A stretch of DNA of 64,000 bases from the human T2T-CHM13v2.0 reference genome, Homo sapiens: the NCBI RefSeq assembly GCF_009914755.1, contig NC_060930.1; one strand, written 5' to 3'. The notes below the pieces were generated by a model. It had not been told where the DNA came from and did no database searches. It worked only from the letters and a program-made list of their open reading frames with translations. How positions within the stretch are numbered: position 1 is the stretch's first letter; each line of letters begins with the position of its first letter. Below are positions 13,361-38,669 of the stretch, piece after piece. The translations under genes were made by a program, and so were the position numbers.

Positions 13361-15254
13361 GAGTACATGTGTCAAATAACTTCAATGGACATCCAAGGAA
13401 ACATTCAGTCTAAGCTAGGATAATGTACTTCATCTTTCCTTTTGCCTAGTTAAATTAAGCAGGCCGGATCTATTAAGGTCAGGGAGGAAACCAAAACCAT
13501 CTGAGTGTGTACACAATGACCCATTTACTATCCTACGTTCATCAGCATAAGGAATCTTCTAATGAGAATCTATTAACAATAGAGGGGCCACACAGCACAA
13601 TAGCCAGGAAGTATCAGCACAGGACCTGAAATGAGCACTTAGCAGTTGTGGCCAGAGACCACGAGCACTCTGGCATGGATTGGTGGTAGGGAAGGAGGTG
13701 AACAGGACCGAAGGGCTTTAGTTCTCATGTTCAAAGTTCCCACCACACTCCTCTCTAGGCAGCCTATATGCCTATCAGCTATTTAAAACTTCAAGTCAAA
13801 CCAGCCTGCCAACGTGCCATCTTAAAATCATTGACTACCACTGAAAGTTAATTTCCAGTCGCCTTCATTTCATACATGCTATAATATACTCTCAATGGTT
13901 GAAATGAGCAAACACATAAACCTTCCAAGTTGTTGGCACTTAAAAGATGACCCCTCTGATGTTCCATCCAGGTCAGCAACACCAACATATATACTTTTCT
14001 CTGTTTTACAGTGTGTGTACAGTCACATTTGGCTTAGAGGCCCAAAGGGGTAAAAAACAACAGCACTGAGTTTGAGAGGCAGAGAAAATGCAGTTTCTTA
14101 ATCATGGGTAAGGGGTTATGTGTCATGAACAGCTGTCACTCAAACACTGCCAGCTACCTGGCCTCCCGGTTTCCCATTGTGAAAGCGTGCACAGCCGTGT
14201 ATTCATATAGCCATATACCACAGACATCCACCAGAAATGCACAGATGTGCTCCCGCCACTGCAGGCATGGGCCATGGTTTCCATTTCCCAAAGAAATACA
14301 TTCCCAACTCCATGGTAGTGGAGTGTTCACCCTTCAATGGTTTCTACAGTTACATATTCTCAGACAATTACCAAGTAGCATTTTTAGTTGCCAAATACAA
14401 AGGATATAATAAAATCTTTAGACATTTTTATGCTAAAAAAAACTGTACAACAAATCATTTTGAAATTATGATAATCTCTGAGTACTATGGATATAGGTAC
14501 TTACTGTTGACTATTCTGACTTGCAAAATATCCTCTGTAGACTCTTACTACCTGGGGAATGTGGGAATTACTTGCTACTGGTAGTACAGACTTCCATAGC
14601 ATAGATTTTTTTTAATCCTAATACCAAATATTTCCACCAAAGAGATGAAAAATGTTTGCTGAAATACAATTCTTATTTCTTTTCATAGCTGGCAGTCATA
14701 CATTTATTAATTATTAAAATAGCATTAAAAATATTAAGGTTGTTATTTACCATAATAATGGTTTCAGTTCCCATAGACTTCGTCTGCTCTTAACCAAAAG
14801 AAAAGCCTATGTACCTTTACAGAGCGACCCGAGGTCAAAACCAAATGCTGCGTATGGAGCTGATGAATTTGACAGACACTCATGGTGATATTGAATTATT
14901 TCCCCCAAAGATGGAGAAATACAACCATACAAATAAAGTCACCTGCAGTGCTTGAATTTCTTACCAAATGCCATTTTTTTTTTCAGTAAAAGTAACTTAA
15001 GAAATGCCCTAGCTCTGATCTAAAATCATAACTGAGCAGAGAAAGTCAAAGCCTGCAGTTACTGAAATACCCCTTTTGAGGTAAGCGGTGGGATTCTTCT
15101 CAACTCCTTCCAGTGTAACCAAAATGCCCTTTCCGGGCATGGCCGGAACCCGTCCTTTGTTTGGAAACGGACGCAAGCCATGCTGAAGGTTCCCAGTGCA
15201 CACAAAGACTCATGTTTTCTGGGTGGAAGGACTTCTGTGACTTGGTGTTTCTTG

Positions 15255-15262
15255 TGACGTCA
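15255..15262. promoter_or_regulatory. Perfect palindromic CRE (TGACGTCA) in intron 1
   Basis: Exact 8-mer with its CpG retained, in a locally CpG-enriched unique stretch (15080-15400). Confidence 0.55.
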
Positions 15263-16377
15263 AAGGAGAAGAGCCATTGCCTCCATTTTGGAGACAGGAG
15301 CCCAAGCCAGTCTCTCTGGATACTCTGCCCAGCTCGGCCCCTGCCACAGCCGAGGCCACAGAGCTGGGCTGCAGGAAGGAATCGGTCACACAAATAAGCC
15401 CTCTACCTAGCTGCCTACCTATCCAGACTCAGATTCTCCAACATGCCTGTTCACCTAATTTTCCACAGCTTAGCCAACAACAAAACATCTCCATCTGGTT
15501 CATTTTTCCTTTGCGTTATAACTGCAGCCCAGAAAAAGCCTGACTAGTTCATCGGGGCCTACTTTAAACCAAATCCAGAAAGCTTTAAGGGAAATAACAG
15601 GTGTCTGCCTGGGTTTCTTTTATGTGGAAATCAGATATCCAAGTATCACTTGTGTTTCCACAGGAAATTTTCCATCTTCAGTTTCTCATTGGTGTTATTC
15701 TAGGCAAAGAAGTACCCAATTGCTTTCACCACCACGTCTCTCCTTGAAATCACAGCACATCACCCCATTTGCTTCAAAAACCTCACCTCCAACTTCAGGA
15801 GGAGGCACAGGGCCCTGCCTGTGCAGAGGATGAAGATTTCACATGACGCAGCCCTAAGCATCCCTGGACTGGAGAAGCATGGAAGAAGTAAACGTCCCTC
15901 CCTGCTGTCCCTCATCAGCAAGGAGCCCGAGGGGGATCTCACCGGCACCCCTGCCCTCTGGACACAGGTGTCCTGCACACAGGCATTCATGTAGGCTCTC
16001 CATCCCCAGTACGGTGTGTCCACACCAATGCACATGACAGCCAGGCAGGCATGAGGGAAAACAGTCAGCTGTCCCCAGTCAATACCTCTTGGCCTCTTCC
16101 CTTCCCACCCCACCCTCCCTTCTTCCCCACACAGCTTCAAGTCCACGCAGATCTGGGTCTCCAGCATTATCTAATCAGCTCACTCCCACCCCACTCCCCG
16201 TATCCTGAAGAAACACGTAAAATCCCATCTGTGGGGGAAAAGTCTACTCAAGTTGTCTTGCTATAGGGAGCTCTGATGAAGCGTGGCGAGGGCATTCCTG
16301 CGGAGGGATCTCAACTCCCAAACGTCTTCCTGCATGTGCTCCTGTTCCTTTTTCTCCTCCCCCTCCCCGCCCCCTAC

Positions 16378-16483
16378 CTTGCTCCTCGCTGCTGTCCCCA
16401 AACCAGGCAGTGGGTTCCTCCTCTGGGAGCTGGGGTTCTCCGCCACCTCCTCCACCCTCGAGGGCTTTGCGTTTCTTCGACAT
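16378..16483 (-). CDS. PDE10A: First coding exon of a far-upstream long N-terminal PDE10A (cAMP/cGMP phosphodiesterase 10A) isoform: MSKKRKALEGGGGGGEPQLPEEEPTAWFGDSSEEQ plus 1 nt
   Basis: ATG at 16483-16481 in ggcagagATG context (-3 G); 35 open codons +1 nt, then CAAG|GTAGGG donor (intron starts 16377, phase 1). The peptide matches my recollection of rodent PDE10A11-13 N-termini, and phase 1 fits the shared PDE10A exon starting (G/S)LTDEKVKAY. Downstream exons are not in the window. Confidence 0.78.
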
Positions 16484-16775
16484 CTCTGCCCAGGGCTGGG
16501 GATTTGGGGGTTTTCTTTCCCCACCCCCTGGCCCTCCCCCCTCGGAGAGGAGAGTGAAGGTGGGGTTGGATGGAGGGGAGGGGGTTAGGTGCAGAGGAAA
16601 GGGGTGGGGAGAAGAGACCAGAGAGGGAGATGGAAGAGATTGCTGCTTCAGGAGGGGAAGGGACTTGGGGTGGCAGGAAAGGCAGAGGGGCAGGGACTCA
16701 GTGCAGAAATCCTACAATCCGGTCCATCAATGTAGCCCTACGTCTAGGAGACTGTTTGCTGGTGTTGCGCCTCTC

Positions 16776-16816
<41 letters not shown>

Positions 16817-16880
16817 CTCCCTCTCCCTCTCTCAGTCTCTCTCTCCTTCCTCCTTCCTCCTTTTCCTTCAACTAGAAGGG
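16484..16880 (-). other. PDE10A: Probable 5' UTR/TSS region of the upstream PDE10A exon, with a (GA)n-rich leader
   Basis: GC-rich sequence and a (CT)n tract at 16771-16860 directly 5' of the ATG on the minus strand. TSS position is inferred, not seen. Confidence 0.45.
16771..16860. repeat. (CT)n/pyrimidine-rich tract
   Basis: Direct reading. Confidence 0.95.
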
Positions 16881-17797
16881 TGAGCCGAGAGGGGAGGAGA
16901 GATCAAACCAGAAAGGAGAGGCTCCTTGGGTGCCTCAGCGGATTTCTTCCCCATTTGGGGGGGCGATGGGGTGGGGTGCTATGAGGACTCCTGGCCCTGT
17001 CTAGCTATGAAGGAGTGGTGTCTTATGGTTGGGCTTGGCTTGGCTTGGGGGGAGGGGGGACGGGACAGTGTTTGCAGTGTTTGGTGAGGATGCGATTTCA
17101 ATGGGTTGCAAGGAAAATTGGGTGGCATGAAGAAAATAAAATGCTGCAGAATGCAATCTAGTGATGCTTTCAGGTGCTGGGGACTCCGGACCCCCTCCTC
17201 CCCTATGACATCACAGGATCTTTTGCAGAAGAGACTGGGGGAGGTGGGGGGAGAGAAGAGAGTGGCGGCAGAGGCGAGGATCAAAAGAGCAGGGGGTCCT
17301 GTCCCCACTGAGAACTGGAGAAGGGCGGCTGGCTCGGGAGGAAGGAAGTTGCGGTGCACACACCATCCCTTCTCCAGGCCGCCTCGGGAGGCACCTGCGG
17401 GTCTGGCGCGGCAGCCGCTGCGGTTTGCAGCTGGCGCGCAGCCCTCGCTGGGAACTTGGAGCTCTCAAACTCCTCGGATCAAGCGTTAGCCCCGAGGCTG
17501 TCAGTTGGCGCTGGGGCGGGCTGCAGTCTCTCTCCCCTCCTCTGCAAACCCTTGAGTCTTCGGCTTTATATACTCCCTTTTCTTCTTTCTCGAGTCCACT
17601 CATCACCCTTTCCCCCAAACAGTCACCTCCACAAACACAACACACCACACACGCGCACACGTTTTCTTATTGCCAAAAAGGGTGGAGGGAAAGGACAGGA
17701 AGTTTTTTTAAGTACACGCACACACACACAAAGATTGGGACTAAGTTTTTCTGGACTCTCAAGGGTTAAATAATAGGTAAAAGAACTGTCAACTTAC

Positions 17798-18318
17798 CCG
17801 CCAAAGTATGCTGACGCGCATATCTGCTTTCCGCTTCATTTCGAGTTCATAAATTTAAAAAGAGACAGTGAGAGAAAGAAAAAGAAAAAAAAAGGCAAGG
17901 CGCCGGGAGCACAGTGGGTCCAGGGTTCCATGGAGAACTGCGCAAAGCAAGTTGCCAAGAAAGCCCGCTGGCCAAGTTCGGGACCTGTCCACCACGCTCG
18001 CGCGCTCCGCTCAGCAGGCAGATTCCAAAGGCTTGGGGCACTCTGGGGTGCGCGCCGATCTTCTCGCAAAAGGCGAGTGTGTGGGGTTCCTCCTTCCCTC
18101 CTTTCCATCTGGGGGTCTCGGGGAAAGCTGCACCCAGCGCCTTGGGCGCCCATGAAGACCAGTCCATCTCAGCTCAAGCTCCCAGCAGCAGCAACTTCGG
18201 ACTCAGACCTCTCTCTTTAGAACATGAGTGCTTGTGTGTGCGTGCGTGTGTGTGTGTGTGTGTGTCCGAGTGCACTTCACATTTGGGGGTGCATGTGCTC
18301 TCAGGAACGACTCTCCCG
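17798..18318 (-). ncRNA. LINC00473: LINC00473 (C6orf176) exon 1, a cAMP/CREB-CRTC-inducible lncRNA
   Basis: Strong donor TGGCGG|GTAAGT at 17798/17797. Contains CACAGTGGGTCCAGGGTT (~17910) and the reverse complement of GATGGAAAGGAGGGAAGG (~18092-18109), which I recall as LINC00473 qPCR primer sites. TATA-like CTTAAAG at 18350-18344 and two CREs just upstream. 5' end is approximate. Confidence 0.8.
18233..18265. repeat. (TG)n microsatellite in LINC00473 exon 1
   Basis: Direct reading; interrupted by cgtgcg. Confidence 0.95.
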
Positions 18319-18339
18319 GCTGCCCGGAACTTAGAGAGT

Positions 18340-18720
18340 TTCCCTTTAAGCCGGAGATGCTGCTCGGACACCCCCCCGCGTCCAACAGGAGGCGATGACG
18401 TCTGTAGCCTCGTTGCCAGAACAGTCCCCAGGCTACCGCTGCCGTTCATTGACAGGAGCGGGCGCTCGGACGTCAGCAGCCGGACCTTTGGCAAGGCTGC
18501 TCCCGCGGAGACGGCTCCCACCCCCGCACCTGCCAGCCCGCCCCCCCGGGGGGTGGTCACGAAATCAAAGCCACCAGAGGAGGGGCCCGGGGAGGTGCTG
18601 GGGCTGGGGGAGGGGGATGACTCGGATCTGCCCTCTTTGTCCTGGAGCACCGGAGTATATAAATAGTGCAGTCTCCAGCCAGACTCTCTCCCAGTCTTGC
18701 ACGCCCCCGCAGTCCCCCCA
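18340..18720. promoter_or_regulatory. Bidirectional cAMP/activity-responsive promoter
   Basis: Minus-strand TTAAAG near 18349; CRE 7/8 matches TGACGTCT 18396-18403 and GGACGTCA 18468-18475; GTCACGA (bHLH-PAS/NPAS4-type) 18556-18562; AP-1-like TGACTCG ~18618-18624; TATATAAATAG 18656-18666; EGR consensus CGCCCCCGC 18702-18710. Confidence 0.75.
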
Positions 18721-19890
18721 ACCCGACCCCCGCCCCTTGTCACTACGTGTCGGGCTCGCTCTGCCTGGAGGGAGGCTGGGGTGCGGGGAAGCAGGGAGTG
18801 CAAACAGACATTGGTTCTCTTTCCTCTTCCCATTCATACATTTCTGTTGGAGTCCTAGGGCCGCCGCGCCGGGAGTCGCAATGAATGGATGGATGCCCGC
18901 GCGCTGGGACCACCAGGTCCGCAGAGATGTCGCCGGCGCTAGGGGCGCTCCTCCCGCGTGGGGACAGGCGCCCTCGCCTAGGCGCAGTGTGGGGGGACCC
19001 CAAAAGACCCTTAAGAGGCCAAAGGCCTGCTCTCCCCGTTCTCCCCAACACACACCAGGGGTCTTTTCTGCCCCGGAGAAGTTGGGACGCAAAACGTAGG
19101 GAACTGCGCTCAGTCTCCGCACCACGAAGAGTCGAGATGGGGACCGAGACCAGCACGGACGGTAGCAACAGAGAGGGGAGCGCCCAAGTGGCGCAACGTT
19201 GTGGCTGAAGCCAAGCCTGTCGCCTCCCCCTGAGTACCGCTGGCGGCCCAGGACCGTGCGCTCTCCCTTCCTGAGCACCCAGGGATGCACTGCGCAGGGA
19301 AGGAGGGCACGGCGGGAGGGTGCTTGCAGGGGACTGCTGCGCGGATTCCCCATCCGCACCCGGCTCGCGGGGAATCCGTGGGCTTGCACTCGCCAGAAAG
19401 AGCTGCTGCAGGAGCAGCCGGATGGTGAGGCCCGTTCCCGACCCTGGGTGGGAGGAACTTAAAGGGCTGAGTTCTGAGGCGCCAGGCACAGGGCGCAGCT
19501 TCATAAATGCACCCAAAAGCTTCCATGGACAGACGGCACAGATGTCGCTGAAGTGAACCTAAGGAAGTTTGCTACCCCAAGACCCGGGCTTCGCAACAGG
19601 TGACAACAGACGTCTGGGAGTGTGGTGACACCTGCGCAGAGTCCCTGGTGGTTCAACCTGTCCGAGAAGGTTGCAAGAAGATGCCACTGTCTTACCTTTC
19701 TCCCCTAGTGCTCATGCCCCAGAAAAGGCCACTGGGTCACTAGATCCCAACCCCTTGTGCCATGAGAGGGAAGCCTGCACAACGGCGTTGGCACTCCCCC
19801 ATAAATCGTCTCCTGGGTCCTTCCCATTACGCACACACATAATGTCATTTCTCCAGGGAAAAATAAATAACAACTTTCTTGACTCTCCAC
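18690..19890 (+). ncRNA. LINC00602: Divergent plus-strand lncRNA, probably LINC00602; exon structure only partly inferred
   Basis: Plus-strand TATA box 18656-18664; candidate donor ATG|GTGAGG ~19424/19425; acceptor cttacctttctcccctAG ending 19708; AATAAA 19862-19867. I recall LINC00602 lying head-to-head with LINC00473; its annotated start may be further left, overlapping exon 1. Confidence 0.5.
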
Positions 19891-35679: not shown

Positions 35680-36630
35680 AGTGGCATTTGTCCCCGCACC
35701 ATCTTCGGGGCTGGCCCGGAGCCCAGGTCCTCCTACTGCCCGGGAGCAGTGGCCGCAACTCCAGGCTGAGGCCTGGCTCTGTCCACTGGGAACCACGCGT
35801 GGGTGCAGGCACCGGGCCTTGGATCACACTTGCGCACTCCGAGCACAGCGCATTACTCTTTTTTTCCTGCCCAGATGACTTTAAATAGAAAAATAGCCCT
35901 GACTCTAGCATGTTCTCAGCCCGTGAACAATGGGTATTTGCTGGACAAGCGGCTGCGGGCCCCGTCTGCAGGCAGCTTGGGCCTGTGGGGAGGTTCCCGT
36001 GACTGCAACTCCCCGGGGCCTCGGAACACAGGACCCCAGGCTCCCAGCCCTACCTCCTTCCTCGGAGGGAGGGGAGGGCTGTGACCCCCTTCCTGGGGGG
36101 CTGTGAACTGCCCCCTCCCAGGTGCCTCCCTCTTTCACTCTCCCCTCGGAGGACTAGGGCTCCACAGGGGCAGGGGGATCACATAGGGTGGCACCCGTCA
36201 CTACAGAGGGGTGCAGGGTTGCAGTAGCGGGGGCTGGGTTGCCTGGGGGACTCGAAGAGTCGCGGGAGCCGTGCGGGGACGAGTGCAGTGGTGCGTGGGG
36301 GTCGTGGGGATGGCGACAGCGGGGGCGGGAGCTGAAAAGGCGCGGGGGTGGCTAAGGGACCCTGCGCAGGAGCTGCCGGCCCTCGCGCGCCCCTCGCGGG
36401 CCCCCCGGGCCCCCCGCCCGCCCGCGGCTGCTGCCGTCAGAGCTGCCTGCGTCAATGCTGCTTGGTGACACACACATCTTTTTTTCTTCTGCTCCTTTTT
36501 CTCAATGAGAGGAGCCTAATGGGATTCTTATTATCAGACTCATAAATCAAACCGTTAGGCCGTCACGTCTGGCACGTGGACAACACCCCCATCCCCCGCG
36601 GCAAACGGAGAGGGCTAGAGCTGCGTTTTC
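35680..36630. promoter_or_regulatory. Orphan CpG island/distal regulatory element 1
   Basis: CpG-dense unique sequence; CGTCA half-CREs at 36196, 36435, 36450, 36561; EGR site 36319-36327. Confidence 0.7.
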
Positions 36631-38669
36631 CCCTTTTCAAGAAAAACTTCAAATATTTTATCTTTATATTTTGAAAATCGCAGTAATGCACAGAGCTCGG
36701 CTTGCTGTGGCTGGTGCAGCTCTACACGGATGCAGAGCTGGTCCTCCCGTTCCCTGGAAATGGTTTTGCAAAGTTGTTGGTTTTGCAAACAATAAAAGGG
36801 TAAAAAATGGGGTTTGCAGGCAAATCGGTTGGTTAGAGGGAACCCACAGATATTTCAAGCTACTGCAACACGAATCGATTAAACATTGTATCAGAGGGGG
36901 TTGTGGGCACAGACTTTGGGGCAGCCCTGCCCTGATGCTTGTGCAACTGACACAAAACAAAACCCCAGCTATGAATGCAAATCAAGGAGCAAAGACGTCA
37001 GCAACTAAGGCGATCTGGAGCGCTAGGAATCCTGAAAGCTTCTGCATTCTCATAGCTACTTGCATGCAGATTTCTAATAAGATAAATCGGCACTGGTGTA
37101 TCTAATTAATGGTTGTCCTCCAACAAGCCACTGGATAGCACTTATTAGCCATGGGAGGTAGGAAGCCAGGTTAACCCCCAAAGGAATCTCAGTGCAGCCC
37201 CTTCCTCATTTTGGTCAGAGACTCAACCAGAGTGTGGAAGCGGAGCAAAGTCAAAAGGGGTCCAGGGACTAAGGCGTTGAGGCAAGGACCCTCAGAGAGG
37301 GAGGTCCCAGCTTCCACAGTCGGACACAGAAAAATATTCCACTCTTGGGAATTGCCTCTTGTGCGAAGCCATATATATTTAGGGGTCTTCTACAGGGAAC
37401 TGTGAAAGGTCTGCAAGCCCGTCATCTGGTCACTCTGAAGCCAGGTCTCCAGAGCTTCCCTGATGAAATTGTCCTGCCTGTGATGGGGGAGTGTTCTCGG
37501 AACCTTTGGGACAGCCTCTGCTGGCTCAGATCAAAACTTCACAGAGCTCAAGGCATGGTCTTCAATTAAAAGCTTGGACCACATGTCAGGTGGGCAGAGG
37601 GCTACCGCTTTAGGGTAAAGTGGCTACAAGGAGAGTGGCCTGATATTTTGTATATATTCATGATCATTTTAATTTCCTCTTCCCAGCCTGTGTTCTGCAT
37701 TTCCCCAGATGTCTTCAAAGGACATATATGACGCCCAGGAGCAGAGTTGTTGGGTCTGTTCTTTCTAATTCCAGACCTTTCTGGTCTTGAGTCGTGGTTT
37801 TCTTAGGGTCCAGTGAAAACAGCAGCGCTTGGAGCTGCAGACCCAGGCTGGGAGCTGCCGCGGGGGCGCACGTGTCTGCCTGTAGCCACAGCCTAGGATC
37901 ATTGCCCTGCGCAGTTGGACGGCTTCCAGGCCTCGTCTAGTTCTCACTGCATTCTTATAGCAGGACAAGTTCTCTGGATTTGTGTGAACTTTTTAAATAA
38001 GAGTTAATAAGTCAATGATTGCCAGATGAGAGAGGCAGCTCATGTGTTTTTAAGAAGCATCAAACCCACCCCCCACCCCCCATATTCTTCCACCCCAGCA
38101 AAGAAGGAGCCAGGAAGGCACTGCAAGGGGGAAGCGGGGGCGGGGGGGGGGAGGGCAGGGAGGATCCCTGAGAAAAAAAGATGAATATTTGCATCTTCAC
38201 TTGTGTGCCTCATTTGGGGTGACCCATGGGTGCAAAGGATGATGTATTTTATACTGAACATGGTACTGGCAATTTTGGGTGCGCAATGAAAAAGAAATGG
38301 GCATGAGCATATCTAGCTTTAAGACACGATTTCAAATATAACTTCCGTCATTCACGTCTAGACCCATATTCTGATATGAGTAATAACTATGCTAAGCAAA
38401 AGTAGATTAGGTGCAATAAATATAAGACCTGTATTCCTATGCTGACTGATGGACTTCAGTGGAATATTTCATTTTAGCAACCGATATATTGCATAAATGA
38501 GTTAACATTGGTCCCATTGCAAAACGATTTTTTATACAAAATTAGAGAGGCTGGCATAAGGAATGCTGCTAGAAAATTATTAGCTCACTTTTTACATCCA
38601 AGGGGGTGAAATGATACACTGTGGAAATTTGTACAAATAGAGAAGTGGATGGATGTCGATGTCAGTGGG

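What the first reader, a model, noticed from the sequence alone, without database searches (positions are those of the whole stretch)
16378..18480. The LINC00473 promoter also serves an intact upstream PDE10A coding exon: a possible CRE-driven cAMP feedback unit
Seen: 1.3 kb inside LINC00473 intron 1, on the same strand, is an open 35-codon exon with a good ATG, a basic NLS-like KKRK and a phase-1 GT donor. CRE-type sites lie on both sides (18396, 18468, 15255). Recalled: the peptide matches rodent PDE10A11-13 N-termini; LINC00473 is described as a primate-specific CREB/CRTC-induced lncRNA; PDE10A hydrolyses cAMP, and its main promoters lie hundreds of kb further down the minus strand. Inference: the lncRNA may be a primate-specific, early-terminating product of an older inducible PDE10A promoter. 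cAMP would then induce both the lncRNA and a differently localised (possibly nuclear) PDE10A isoform. Promoter-level LINC00473 perturbations could be confounded by effects on PDE10A.
Basis: partly seen in the sequence, partly recalled or inferred. Interest (0 to 1): 0.85.

Follow-up and report, generated by a model that had tools for sequence, protein, structure and literature searches.

The report
Conserved upstream PDE10A start exon
This is a real, conserved alternative first coding exon of the PDE10A gene lying just downstream of the LINC00473 promoter, but both the exon and the idea that the lncRNA took over an old cAMP-inducible PDE10A promoter are already annotated and published.

Summary
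On the minus strand, an ATG at 16483 opens 35 codons (MSKKRK...SSEEQ) that end at a phase-1 GT donor after 16378.

The peptide is the N-terminus of predicted PDE10A isoforms in at least seven mammals, and it is 35/35 identical in squirrel monkey. In the human genome it joins in frame to an intact 135-nt second exon 276 kb downstream, and also directly to the common LTDEKV exon. Similarity to other species collapses right at the ATG and at the donor, as expected for a coding exon.

Pruunsild 2023 describes the two conserved 5' exons. Squires 2025 (preprint) proposes that LINC00473 hijacked an ancestral CREB-Pde10a feedback promoter. RefSeq already models the exon.

- This exon behaves as a separate 5' exon that neuronal activity does not induce.
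- CRISPRa at the LINC00473 promoter does not raise PDE10A in 293H cells.
- Nascent transcription drops after LINC00473.

What remains untested is the invariant KKRK motif as a nuclear signal. Verdict: ordinary and already known, with low-to-moderate interest.

The parts
16378..16483 (-). Coding part of the far-upstream alternative first exon of PDE10A. It holds the ATG at 16483, 35 codons (MSKKRK...SSEEQ) and the first base (G, 16378) of a split codon.
   Evidence: Searches give the sequence and translation. It is 35/35 identical to the N-terminus of Saimiri PDE10A isoform X2 (P0004), and 25-33 of 35 (29 of 36 in rabbit) identical in six other mammals. The hub table lists PDE10A 'exons of other transcripts 16378-18384'.
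16372..16377 (-). 5' splice donor GTAGGG of that exon (phase 1).
   Evidence: The split codon G+CC gives Ala with human exon 2', and G+GT gives Gly with the common exon.
16484..16570 (-). 5' UTR immediately upstream of the ATG. It is pyrimidine-rich and shows no reading-frame conservation.
   Evidence: The read-through ORFs P0003, P0008 and P0010 align to the human sequence here only by switching between frames -1 and -2 and with gaps.
17564..17572 (-). TATA-like TATATAAAG between LINC00473 exon 1 and the coding exon. It is a candidate core element of the exon's own promoter, and this role is an inference.
   Evidence: One search gives the sequence. [quoted passage not shown] No TSS data were available here.
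17798..18308 (-). LINC00473 exon 1, the ortholog of the inducible first 5' exon of mouse Pde10a. Its donor is CGG|GTAAGT.
   Evidence: Hub table. It holds 10 ATGs. Orthology and inducibility come from PMC10235438.
18396..18403 (.). CRE-like site TGACGTCT, 88-95 nt upstream of the LINC00473 TSS.
   Evidence: Squires 2025 reports two conserved putative CREB sites in this promoter fragment. Equating those with these exact sites is my inference.
18468..18475 (.). Second CRE-like site GGACGTCA, 160-167 nt upstream of the LINC00473 TSS.
   Evidence: with the same literature basis as the first site.
15255..15262 (.). The only perfect palindromic CRE (TGACGTCA) in the window, 1.1 kb into the intron below the coding exon.
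   Evidence: It is not significant on its own, since 21 of 100 shuffles gave at least one. Its function is unknown.

Best explanation
Window 16378-16483 (minus strand) is the conserved, far-upstream alternative first coding exon of PDE10A.

**What it encodes.** It gives a 35-residue, probably disordered N-terminus: an invariant MSKKRKALEG, a glycine run, then an acidic tail. It splices in phase 1 across about 276 kb to a 135-nt exon (G000:C6:167078081-167078215). That exon in turn joins the common exon that begins LTDEKV. The product would be an N-terminally extended PDE10A of roughly 847 aa, like the squirrel-monkey model.

**How it relates to the LINC00473 promoter.** The exon lies 1.3 kb downstream of LINC00473 exon 1. 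That exon's CRE-bearing promoter is the ancestral cAMP/CREB-inducible Pde10a promoter. In simian primates most output of that promoter is captured by the LINC00473 3' exon and its poly(A) sites. In human, the coding exon is most likely a separate 5' exon fed by its own weaker, non-CpG-island promoter. That promoter would lie between 16.5 and 17.6 kb of the window. The exon is therefore not an obligatory product of the LINC00473 promoter.

**Shown versus inferred.**
- Shown here: the exon anatomy, cross-species conservation, frame compatibility and intactness of the human partner exons.
- Shown in print: promoter inducibility, the mouse feedback loop and independent regulation in human cells.
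- Inferred: the exon's own promoter, translation in human, and nuclear import through KKRK.
For: **Anatomy.**

**Homology.**
- In one search, 11 of 74 scored candidates passed E<=0.01.
- 7 of those 11 are full PDE10A proteins with GAF and PDEase Pfam domains that start with this peptide: Saimiri, Nannospalax, Equus asinus, Vicugna, Camelus, Oryctolagus and Manis.
- MSKKRKALEG is present in 11 of 11 hits.
- Identity to the human exon is 35/35, 33/35, 32/35, 31/35, 30/35, 29/36 and 25/35.

**Boundaries.** The read-through ORFs P0002, P0003 and P0008 lose similarity directly after the donor, with long gaps and stops in the human frame. Upstream of the ATG they switch frame.

**Human partner exons.**
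- The six-frame search of the own genome found query residues 35-84 at C6:167078070-167078219, without stops. It found residues 79-125 at C6:166909483-166909623.
- Reading them shows canonical CAG| acceptors and |GTAA donors, a 135-nt open exon, and junction codons GCC=Ala and GGT=Gly. Ala matches all six species that carry the second exon.

**Literature.**
[quoted passage not shown] The second 5' exon was not induced and has a more divergent promoter. The mouse annotation has two upstream 5' exons, of which only the LINC00473-exon-1 ortholog is induced.
- Squires 2025 preprint, read as abstract, introduction, part 1 of 3 of the results, the sections on mouse neurons and human cells, the discussion and passages.
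- PMC11020935, passages only: ChRO-seq signal is 'markedly diminished' in the ~250 kb gap after LINC00473.

**Local sequence.** Only 17600-19700 looks like a CpG island (o/e 0.63-0.70). The stretch 16500-17000 has o/e 0.17.
Against: - **Predicted proteins only.** All the non-human proteins are computational predictions, which are open by construction. They show sequence conservation, not expression.
- **No dN/dS.** I had no orthologous DNA, so no dN/dS or PhyloCSF test was possible. The exon is more conserved than the neighbouring coding exon 2', which scores 27-31 of 44 outside primates. Part of that constraint could therefore act on the DNA rather than on the protein.
- **Annotation is ambiguous.** The hub table gives one undivided range, 16378-18384, for PDE10A exons. 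A RefSeq model may therefore run from beside the CRE straight through to this donor. That would fit a shared promoter.
- **One joined model.** A Bos mutus model (P0010) joins the LINC00473-exon-1 homolog to about 100 nt upstream of the ATG.
- **Co-elevation under PKA.** PDE10A is raised together with LINC00473 in DNAJB1-PRKACA HEK clones and fibrolamellar tumours. It also rises at 6 h in forskolin-treated human neurons.
- **No direct human evidence.** I saw no human transcript or peptide evidence for this exon.
Confidence: 0.62

Rival explanations
1. The CRE-bearing LINC00473 promoter also drives this coding exon in human. cAMP would then co-induce the lncRNA and an N-terminally distinct, possibly nuclear, PDE10A isoform. 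That would form a live feedback unit and would confound promoter-level LINC00473 perturbations.
For: - The exon lies only 1.3 kb downstream on the same strand.
- The hub annotation gives the PDE10A exon range as one block, 16378-18384, starting 12 nt below the CRE-like site.
- Squires 2025 cites predicted models XM_017010194.3 and XM_011535387.4 that start near p1@LINC00473.
- The mouse homolog of the promoter does drive Pde10a mRNA and protein.
- PDE10A rises at 6 h in forskolin/IBMX-treated human iPSC neurons.
- PDE10A is co-elevated with LINC00473 under constitutive PKA.
- The Bos mutus model P0010 joins the two exons.
- By my crude filter, two candidate acceptors exist between the exons, at 17235 and 16872.
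Against: - In human neurons this 5' exon was not induced by firing, while LINC00473's exons were.
- CRISPRa at the promoter raised LINC00473 about 2-fold with no PDE10A change in 293H cells. Forskolin did not induce PDE10A in 293H or MCF-7 cells.
- Nascent transcription drops after LINC00473 in tumours with constitutive PKA.
- A transcript carrying LINC00473 exon 1 as leader would place 10 upstream ATGs before the PDE10A start. An unspliced leader from 18384 would place 16.
- The mouse annotation also treats the two as separate 5' exons, and only the first responds.
Confidence: 0.2
2. In human the exon is a relic. The sequence is kept by DNA-level constraint, as promoter-proximal or enhancer function for LINC00473/PDE10A. 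It is no longer translated into a PDE10A isoform at meaningful levels.
For: - I found no human transcript or peptide evidence. Two full-text searches for stretches of the peptide gave 0 papers.
- Squires 2025 regards the human long models as unreliable automated predictions, and regards the long transcript as likely not conserved in human.
- Between orders, the exon is more conserved than the adjacent coding exon 2', which is unusual for a disordered N-terminal tail.
Against: - Conservation stops exactly at the ATG and at the donor, and the flanks shift frame.
- The indels within the exon that were seen keep the frame: -3 aa in the bovid sequences P0008 and P0010, and +1 aa in rabbit.
- Human and squirrel monkey share 35/35 residues in this exon and 43/44 in exon 2'. 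Both human partner exons keep canonical splice sites and open frames.
- Pruunsild 2023 states that the shared 5' exons 'can be used in PDE10A mRNAs'.
Confidence: 0.15

Closest known systems
Ancestral CREB-inducible Pde10a promoter 'hijacked' by LINC00473 (Squires et al. 2025, bioRxiv 10.1101/2025.10.02.680088; Pruunsild et al. 2023, PMC10235438)
   Same: It concerns the same locus, the same promoter with two conserved CREB sites, and the same evolutionary reading: LINC00473 is a simian-primate product of an older inducible Pde10a promoter. It also proposes the same feedback logic, that PDE10A lowers cAMP/CREB signalling.
   Different: In the sections and passages I read, neither paper analyses the 35-codon exon's peptide, its frame or its KKRK motif.
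N-terminal isoform diversity of PDE10A (PDE10A1, A2, A3, A19) from alternative first exons
   Same: Alternative 5' exons each supply a short, unique N-terminus joined in frame to the common exon, and the N-terminus sets localisation. PDE10A2 is membrane-bound through Cys-11 palmitoylation, while A1 and A19 are cytosolic (MacMullen 2016, PMC4872433).
   Different: This exon lies about 445 kb upstream of the common exon, far above the promoters studied there. It is conserved across placental orders, unlike the primate-only A19. It carries a basic KKRK motif rather than a lipidation site. MacMullen 2016 states that the three human isoforms it tested are non-nuclear.
cAMP-inducible short-form promoters of PDE4 genes (PDE4B/PDE4D feedback)
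   Same: A CRE-driven alternative promoter raises a cAMP-degrading enzyme with a distinct N-terminus, giving transcriptional negative feedback. Squires 2025 draws this parallel for PDE4B. The PDE4D part is recalled.
   Different: In human, this promoter's output ends mostly as a lncRNA. The inducible exon and the coding first exon appear to be two separate 5' exons.
Classical monopartite nuclear localisation signal (K-K/R-X-K/R, SV40 T-antigen type; recalled)
   Same: KKRK at residues 3-6 fits the consensus. It is invariant in 11 of 11 homologs and sits in an exposed, glycine-flanked N-terminal tail.
   Different: There is no functional test. Short basic runs also occur in many non-nuclear proteins.

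Membership tests
PDE10A alternative first coding exon | Lies on the PDE10A strand, within or upstream of the gene, as an ATG-initiated open frame that ends at a GT donor | tested here: met
   The hub table places the PDE10A span up to 18384 on the minus strand.
PDE10A alternative first coding exon | Donor phase compatible with the common PDE10A exon in the same genome | tested here: met
   The phase-1 donor meets phase-1 acceptors at C6:167078215 (exon 2', 135 nt, phase 1 to 1) and C6:166909616 (common exon). The junction codons are GCC=A and GGT=G.
PDE10A alternative first coding exon | Orthologous peptide found at the N-terminus of PDE10A proteins of other species | tested here: met
   Seven PDE10A proteins from seven mammalian genera start with it. 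All are predicted models.
PDE10A alternative first coding exon | Coding-type conservation (constraint bounded by the CDS, frame kept) | tested here: inconclusive
   Protein-level evidence is positive: boundaries are sharp and the indels seen keep the frame. No orthologous DNA was available, so no dN/dS or PhyloCSF test was run.
PDE10A alternative first coding exon | Human transcripts that join the exon to downstream PDE10A exons, and a translated product | not testable with these tools
   The only evidence is statements in print: 'can be used in PDE10A mRNAs' and the predicted XM models.
CREB-target, cAMP-inducible promoter unit that includes this exon | CRE full or half sites within about 200 bp of the TSS | tested here: met
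   TGACGTCT at 18396 and GGACGTCA at 18468, relative to the LINC00473 TSS at 18308. The motif counts alone are not above chance.
CREB-target, cAMP-inducible promoter unit that includes this exon | Promoter responds to cAMP/CREB | not testable with these tools
   Reported in print: about 5-fold forskolin induction of the human and mouse reporter fragments, and ACREB-sensitive reporter activity for both fragments according to the Fig. 1E legend.
CREB-target, cAMP-inducible promoter unit that includes this exon | The exon in question is itself induced from that promoter | not testable with these tools
   Published human data point the other way. The exon was not induced by firing, and PDE10A did not change on CRISPRa. 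I therefore do not file the exon under this unit.
Classical monopartite NLS | K-K/R-X-K/R motif in an accessible region | tested here: met
   KKRK occupies residues 3-6 and is invariant in 11 of 11 homologs. The consensus is recalled.
Classical monopartite NLS | Sufficient and necessary for nuclear import | not testable with these tools
   No experiment was found. Searches returned no paper whose title or abstract start links PDE10A to an NLS. The two I opened mention the two only in unrelated places.

The most novel reading that the evidence does not exclude
The invariant KKRK at the start of this exon is a working nuclear import signal. The exon would then encode the PDE10A species behind the long-noted nuclear or perinuclear PDE10A staining in non-striatal forebrain neurons. 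Its perfect retention from squirrel monkey to human, together with an intact partner exon, would mean primates did not fully lose the CRE-proximal PDE10A arm. A slow, nucleus-directed cAMP/CREB feedback would persist beside LINC00473. That could also explain the delayed 6-h PDE10A rise in forskolin-treated human neurons.
Probability: 0.2. Interest if true: 0.55.

Novelty: already known. Interest (0 to 1): 0.25.

Why it matters
LINC00473 is widely used as a read-out and effector of CREB signalling in neurons, adipocytes and tumours, and PDE10A is a drug target. It matters whether the two share a promoter, both for interpreting promoter-level perturbations and for mouse-to-human translation of PDE10A inhibitors. 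That question has already been raised and partly answered in print, and so far the two are largely uncoupled in human cells.

This check adds three things:
- The human genome still keeps a fully intact, frame-compatible far-upstream PDE10A start exon and its partner exon.
- The constraint on the start exon is bounded exactly by its coding limits.
- The encoded tail carries an invariant KKRK that nobody appears to have tested.

These are modest additions that sharpen an existing hypothesis. They do not open a new one.

Tried and rejected
- **Peptide too short for the protein search.** The 35-aa peptide was below the 40-aa minimum. I re-sent the window's own 79-aa read-through ORF with region 1-40.
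- **Second coding exon in the window.** tblastn with the N-terminal 130 aa of eight proteins found only exon 1. The exon lies 276 kb away and was found in the own genome.
- **Older origin of the exon.** A second protein search with residues 1-81 of P0004 gave 7 hits among 473 candidates. All are placental mammals. One is a human isoform X2 (P0013) that carries exon 2' behind a different first exon. No marsupial, bird or reptile hit appeared. The word-based search is insensitive, so this does not show absence.
- **CRE motif statistics as evidence.** Rejected. With 0 mismatches there was 1 site against 0.22 expected, reached by 21 of 100 shuffles. Half-sites numbered 29 against 27.9 expected. 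With 1 mismatch there were 24 against 12.8 window-wide, but most of the excess is TGAGGTCA- or TGACATCA-type sites elsewhere.
There were 0 occurrences in the library. The 5 listed of the 8 papers matched only 'PDE10A3'. O'Connor 2004 and MacMullen 2017 are not held.
- **Peptide strings in full text.** 0 papers.
- **Supplementary files of PMC10235438.** The exon-usage tables S1-S4 could bear directly on whether this exon responds to activity.
- **Bacterial promoter/terminator scan, RNA-family scan and structure prediction.** Not run, as they are uninformative for a 35-residue disordered human exon.
Full report
**1. The observation**

Read on the minus strand, the window has an ATG at 16483. It opens 35 codons, MSKKRKALEGGGGGGEPQLPEEEPTAWFGDSSEEQ. 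One further G at 16378 and GTAGGG follow, which makes a phase-1 donor.

The start context, GCAGAGATGT, has a purine at -3 and T at +4. KKRK occupies residues 3-6. The LINC00473 exon-1 donor (CGG|GTAAGT, exon end 17798 in the hub table) lies 1,314 nt upstream, so the exon sits inside LINC00473 intron 1 on the same strand.

None of this is beyond chance on its own:
- 17 ATG-ORFs of 25 aa or more overlap 16200-18600.
- One perfect CRE per window was reached by 21 of 100 shuffles.
- TGACG half-sites number 29 against 27.9 expected.

**2. What it is**

A search of the large protein database used the window's own ORF, scoring residues 1-40 and taking longer proteins. It gave 11 hits at E<=0.01 among 74 candidates.

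- Seven hits are full-length PDE10A proteins with GAF and PDEase domains that begin with this peptide. They come from Saimiri, Nannospalax, Equus asinus, Vicugna, Camelus, Oryctolagus and Manis.
- One hit is a Bos mutus 'hypothetical protein'.
- Three hits are short read-through ORFs from unnamed sources.
- MSKKRKALEG is present in 11 of 11.

Identity to the human exon is 35/35, 33/35, 32/35, 31/35, 30/35, 29/36 and 25/35.

In six of the seven PDE10A proteins the peptide is followed by Ala and a 44-residue segment, then G-LTDEKVKAY. In Manis it joins G-LTDEKV directly.

All these proteins are computational models. They show conservation and plausible splicing, not expression.

**3. Is the human gene still able to use it?**

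The window's own genome is held. A six-frame search with the Saimiri protein found three relevant matches, none with stops:
- residues 1-54 at the window exon;
- residues 35-84 at C6:167078070-167078219;
- residues 79-125 at C6:166909483-166909623.

Reading the two distant places gave this:
- A 135-nt exon at C6:167078081-167078215, with a pyrimidine tract plus CAG acceptor and a CAG|GTAAAA donor. It is open in the required frame and is phase 1 to phase 1.
- The common exon at C6:166909488-166909616, with a phase-1 acceptor.
- Split codons GCC (Ala, matching the other species) and GGT (Gly).

The human genome therefore keeps every piece needed for the long isoform, whether or not the second exon is included. 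That second exon is 43/44 identical to Saimiri, but only 27-31 of 44 identical in other orders. The start exon is the better conserved of the two.

**4. Coding-type constraint**

I had no orthologous DNA, so no dN/dS could be run. A cruder test was possible. Three read-through ORFs and the Bos model carry translated flanks.

- Downstream of the donor, similarity to human collapses at once, with a 12-residue gap and then stops in the human frame.
- Upstream of the ATG, the alignment has to switch between frames -1 and -2.
- Within the exon, the indels seen keep the frame: three Gly fewer in the bovid sequences and one residue more in rabbit.

This pattern is what a coding exon gives. Open frames are guaranteed for predicted proteins, however, so the test is one-sided.

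**5. Which promoter feeds it?**

Local sequence:
- Only 17600-19700 has CpG-island character (o/e 0.63-0.70). The stretch 16500-17000 has o/e 0.17.
- A TATATAAAG sits at 17564-17572.
- A leader that includes LINC00473 exon 1 would place 10 ATGs before the PDE10A start. An unspliced leader from 18384 would place 16.
- My crude filter finds two possible acceptors between the exons, at 17235 and 16872.

Published evidence is more telling.

- **Pruunsild et al. 2023 (PMC10235438; I read sections 4, 5 and 9 and passages).**
  - The LINC00473 5' exon is the activity-induced one.
  - The mouse annotation likewise has two upstream 5' exons, of which only the LINC00473-exon-1 ortholog rises.
- **Squires et al. 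2025 (bioRxiv; I read the abstract, introduction, part 1 of 3 of the results, the sections on mouse neurons and human cells, the discussion and passages).**
  - The mouse homolog of the promoter is cAMP/CREB-inducible and drives Pde10a mRNA and protein.
  - Human CRISPRa at the LINC00473 promoter raises LINC00473 about 2-fold with no change in PDE10A in 293H cells.
  - Forskolin/IBMX does not induce PDE10A in 293H or MCF-7 cells. In iPSC neurons it does so only at 6 h.
  - The authors call the human long models (XM_017010194.3, XM_011535387.4) automated predictions.
- **ChRO-seq in fibrolamellar carcinoma (PMC11020935, passages only).** Transcription is 'markedly diminished' in the ~250 kb after LINC00473.
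- **On the other side.** PDE10A is co-elevated with LINC00473 in DNAJB1-PRKACA HEK clones and tumours (PMC8846505, passages). The hub table also gives the PDE10A exon range as one block, 16378-18384.

**6. Mechanism I commit to**

The segment is PDE10A's conserved far-upstream alternative first coding exon. In human it most likely runs from its own weak promoter just downstream of LINC00473 exon 1.

The CRE promoter above it is the ancestral inducible Pde10a promoter, whose output in simian primates ends mostly as LINC00473. I put about 0.6 on this reading.

**7. The nuclear idea**

KKRK fits the classical monopartite consensus (recalled) and is invariant in 11 of 11 homologs.

- A review (PMC7855852, passages) records that PDE10A immunoreactivity in forebrain neurons outside the striatum is nuclear or perinuclear. 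It also records that hippocampal fractionation confirmed this, and that LTP raises Pde10a mRNA.
- MacMullen 2016 found the three human isoforms it tested to be non-nuclear.
- No paper listed by two searches has a title or abstract start that ties an NLS or this N-terminus to PDE10A. The two I opened mention the two only in unrelated places. Neither of two peptide-string searches found a paper.

The link is therefore a fair, cheap hypothesis, but it is untested.

**8. Comparison and novelty**

The exon is already in RefSeq models. The two conserved 5' exons are described in Pruunsild 2023. The 'old inducible PDE10A promoter captured by a primate lncRNA, breaking a CREB-PDE10A feedback loop' idea is the title claim of Squires 2025. 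The finding is therefore already known.

This check adds the frame-level verification in the human genome, the sharp coding boundaries of conservation, and the untested KKRK motif.

Those names have 0 occurrences in the library, and O'Connor 2004 is not held.

**9. Limits**

- I had no mammalian genome alignments, no expression data, and no supplementary tables (closed).
- The word-based protein search cannot exclude the exon in marsupials or sauropsids.

Noticed in passing
window 36196-37733: Seven TGACG half-sites fall within 1.5 kb, including AGACGTCA at 36993-37000. They coincide with the RefSeq enhancer 36720-37252 and the CAGE cluster 36952-37200 in the hub table. This may be a CREB-responsive upstream element about 18.5 kb above the LINC00473 TSS.
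   Followed up: no
window 15255-15262: The only perfect palindromic CRE in the window lies in the intron 1.1 kb below the coding exon, in a locally GC-richer patch (GC 0.51-0.53 at 15050-15500). No annotation covers it.
   Followed up: partly
window 17564-17572 (minus strand): A strong TATA-like element, TATATAAAG, sits between LINC00473 exon 1 and the PDE10A coding exon. A CRE-variant TGACATCA lies at 17206-17213. Together they could mark the 'more divergent promoter' that Pruunsild 2023 assigns to the second 5' exon.
   Followed up: partly
G000:C6:167078081-167078215 (outside the window): The human second exon contains an in-frame ATG (…AQMSDDPAEG…). Transcripts that skip the MSKKRK exon could therefore start translation there. 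A human predicted isoform X2 (P0013) puts a different first exon (MPKPWLG…) in front of this exon.
   Followed up: partly
window 16780-16865 and 18240-18270 (minus strand): There are two simple repeats: a long (GA)n/(GAGA) tract about 300 nt upstream of the PDE10A ATG, and a (CA)n tract inside LINC00473 exon 1. Both are possible sources of length polymorphism in the leaders.
   Followed up: no
window 18267-18449 (minus strand): The Bos mutus model P0010 translates the homolog of the LINC00473 promoter and start of exon 1 as protein (MNGSGSLGT…), and then joins it about 100 nt upstream of the MSKKRK ATG. After EEQ it continues into non-PDE10A sequence, so the model looks unreliable. It does hint at exon-1-to-exon-2 splicing in bovids.
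   Followed up: partly
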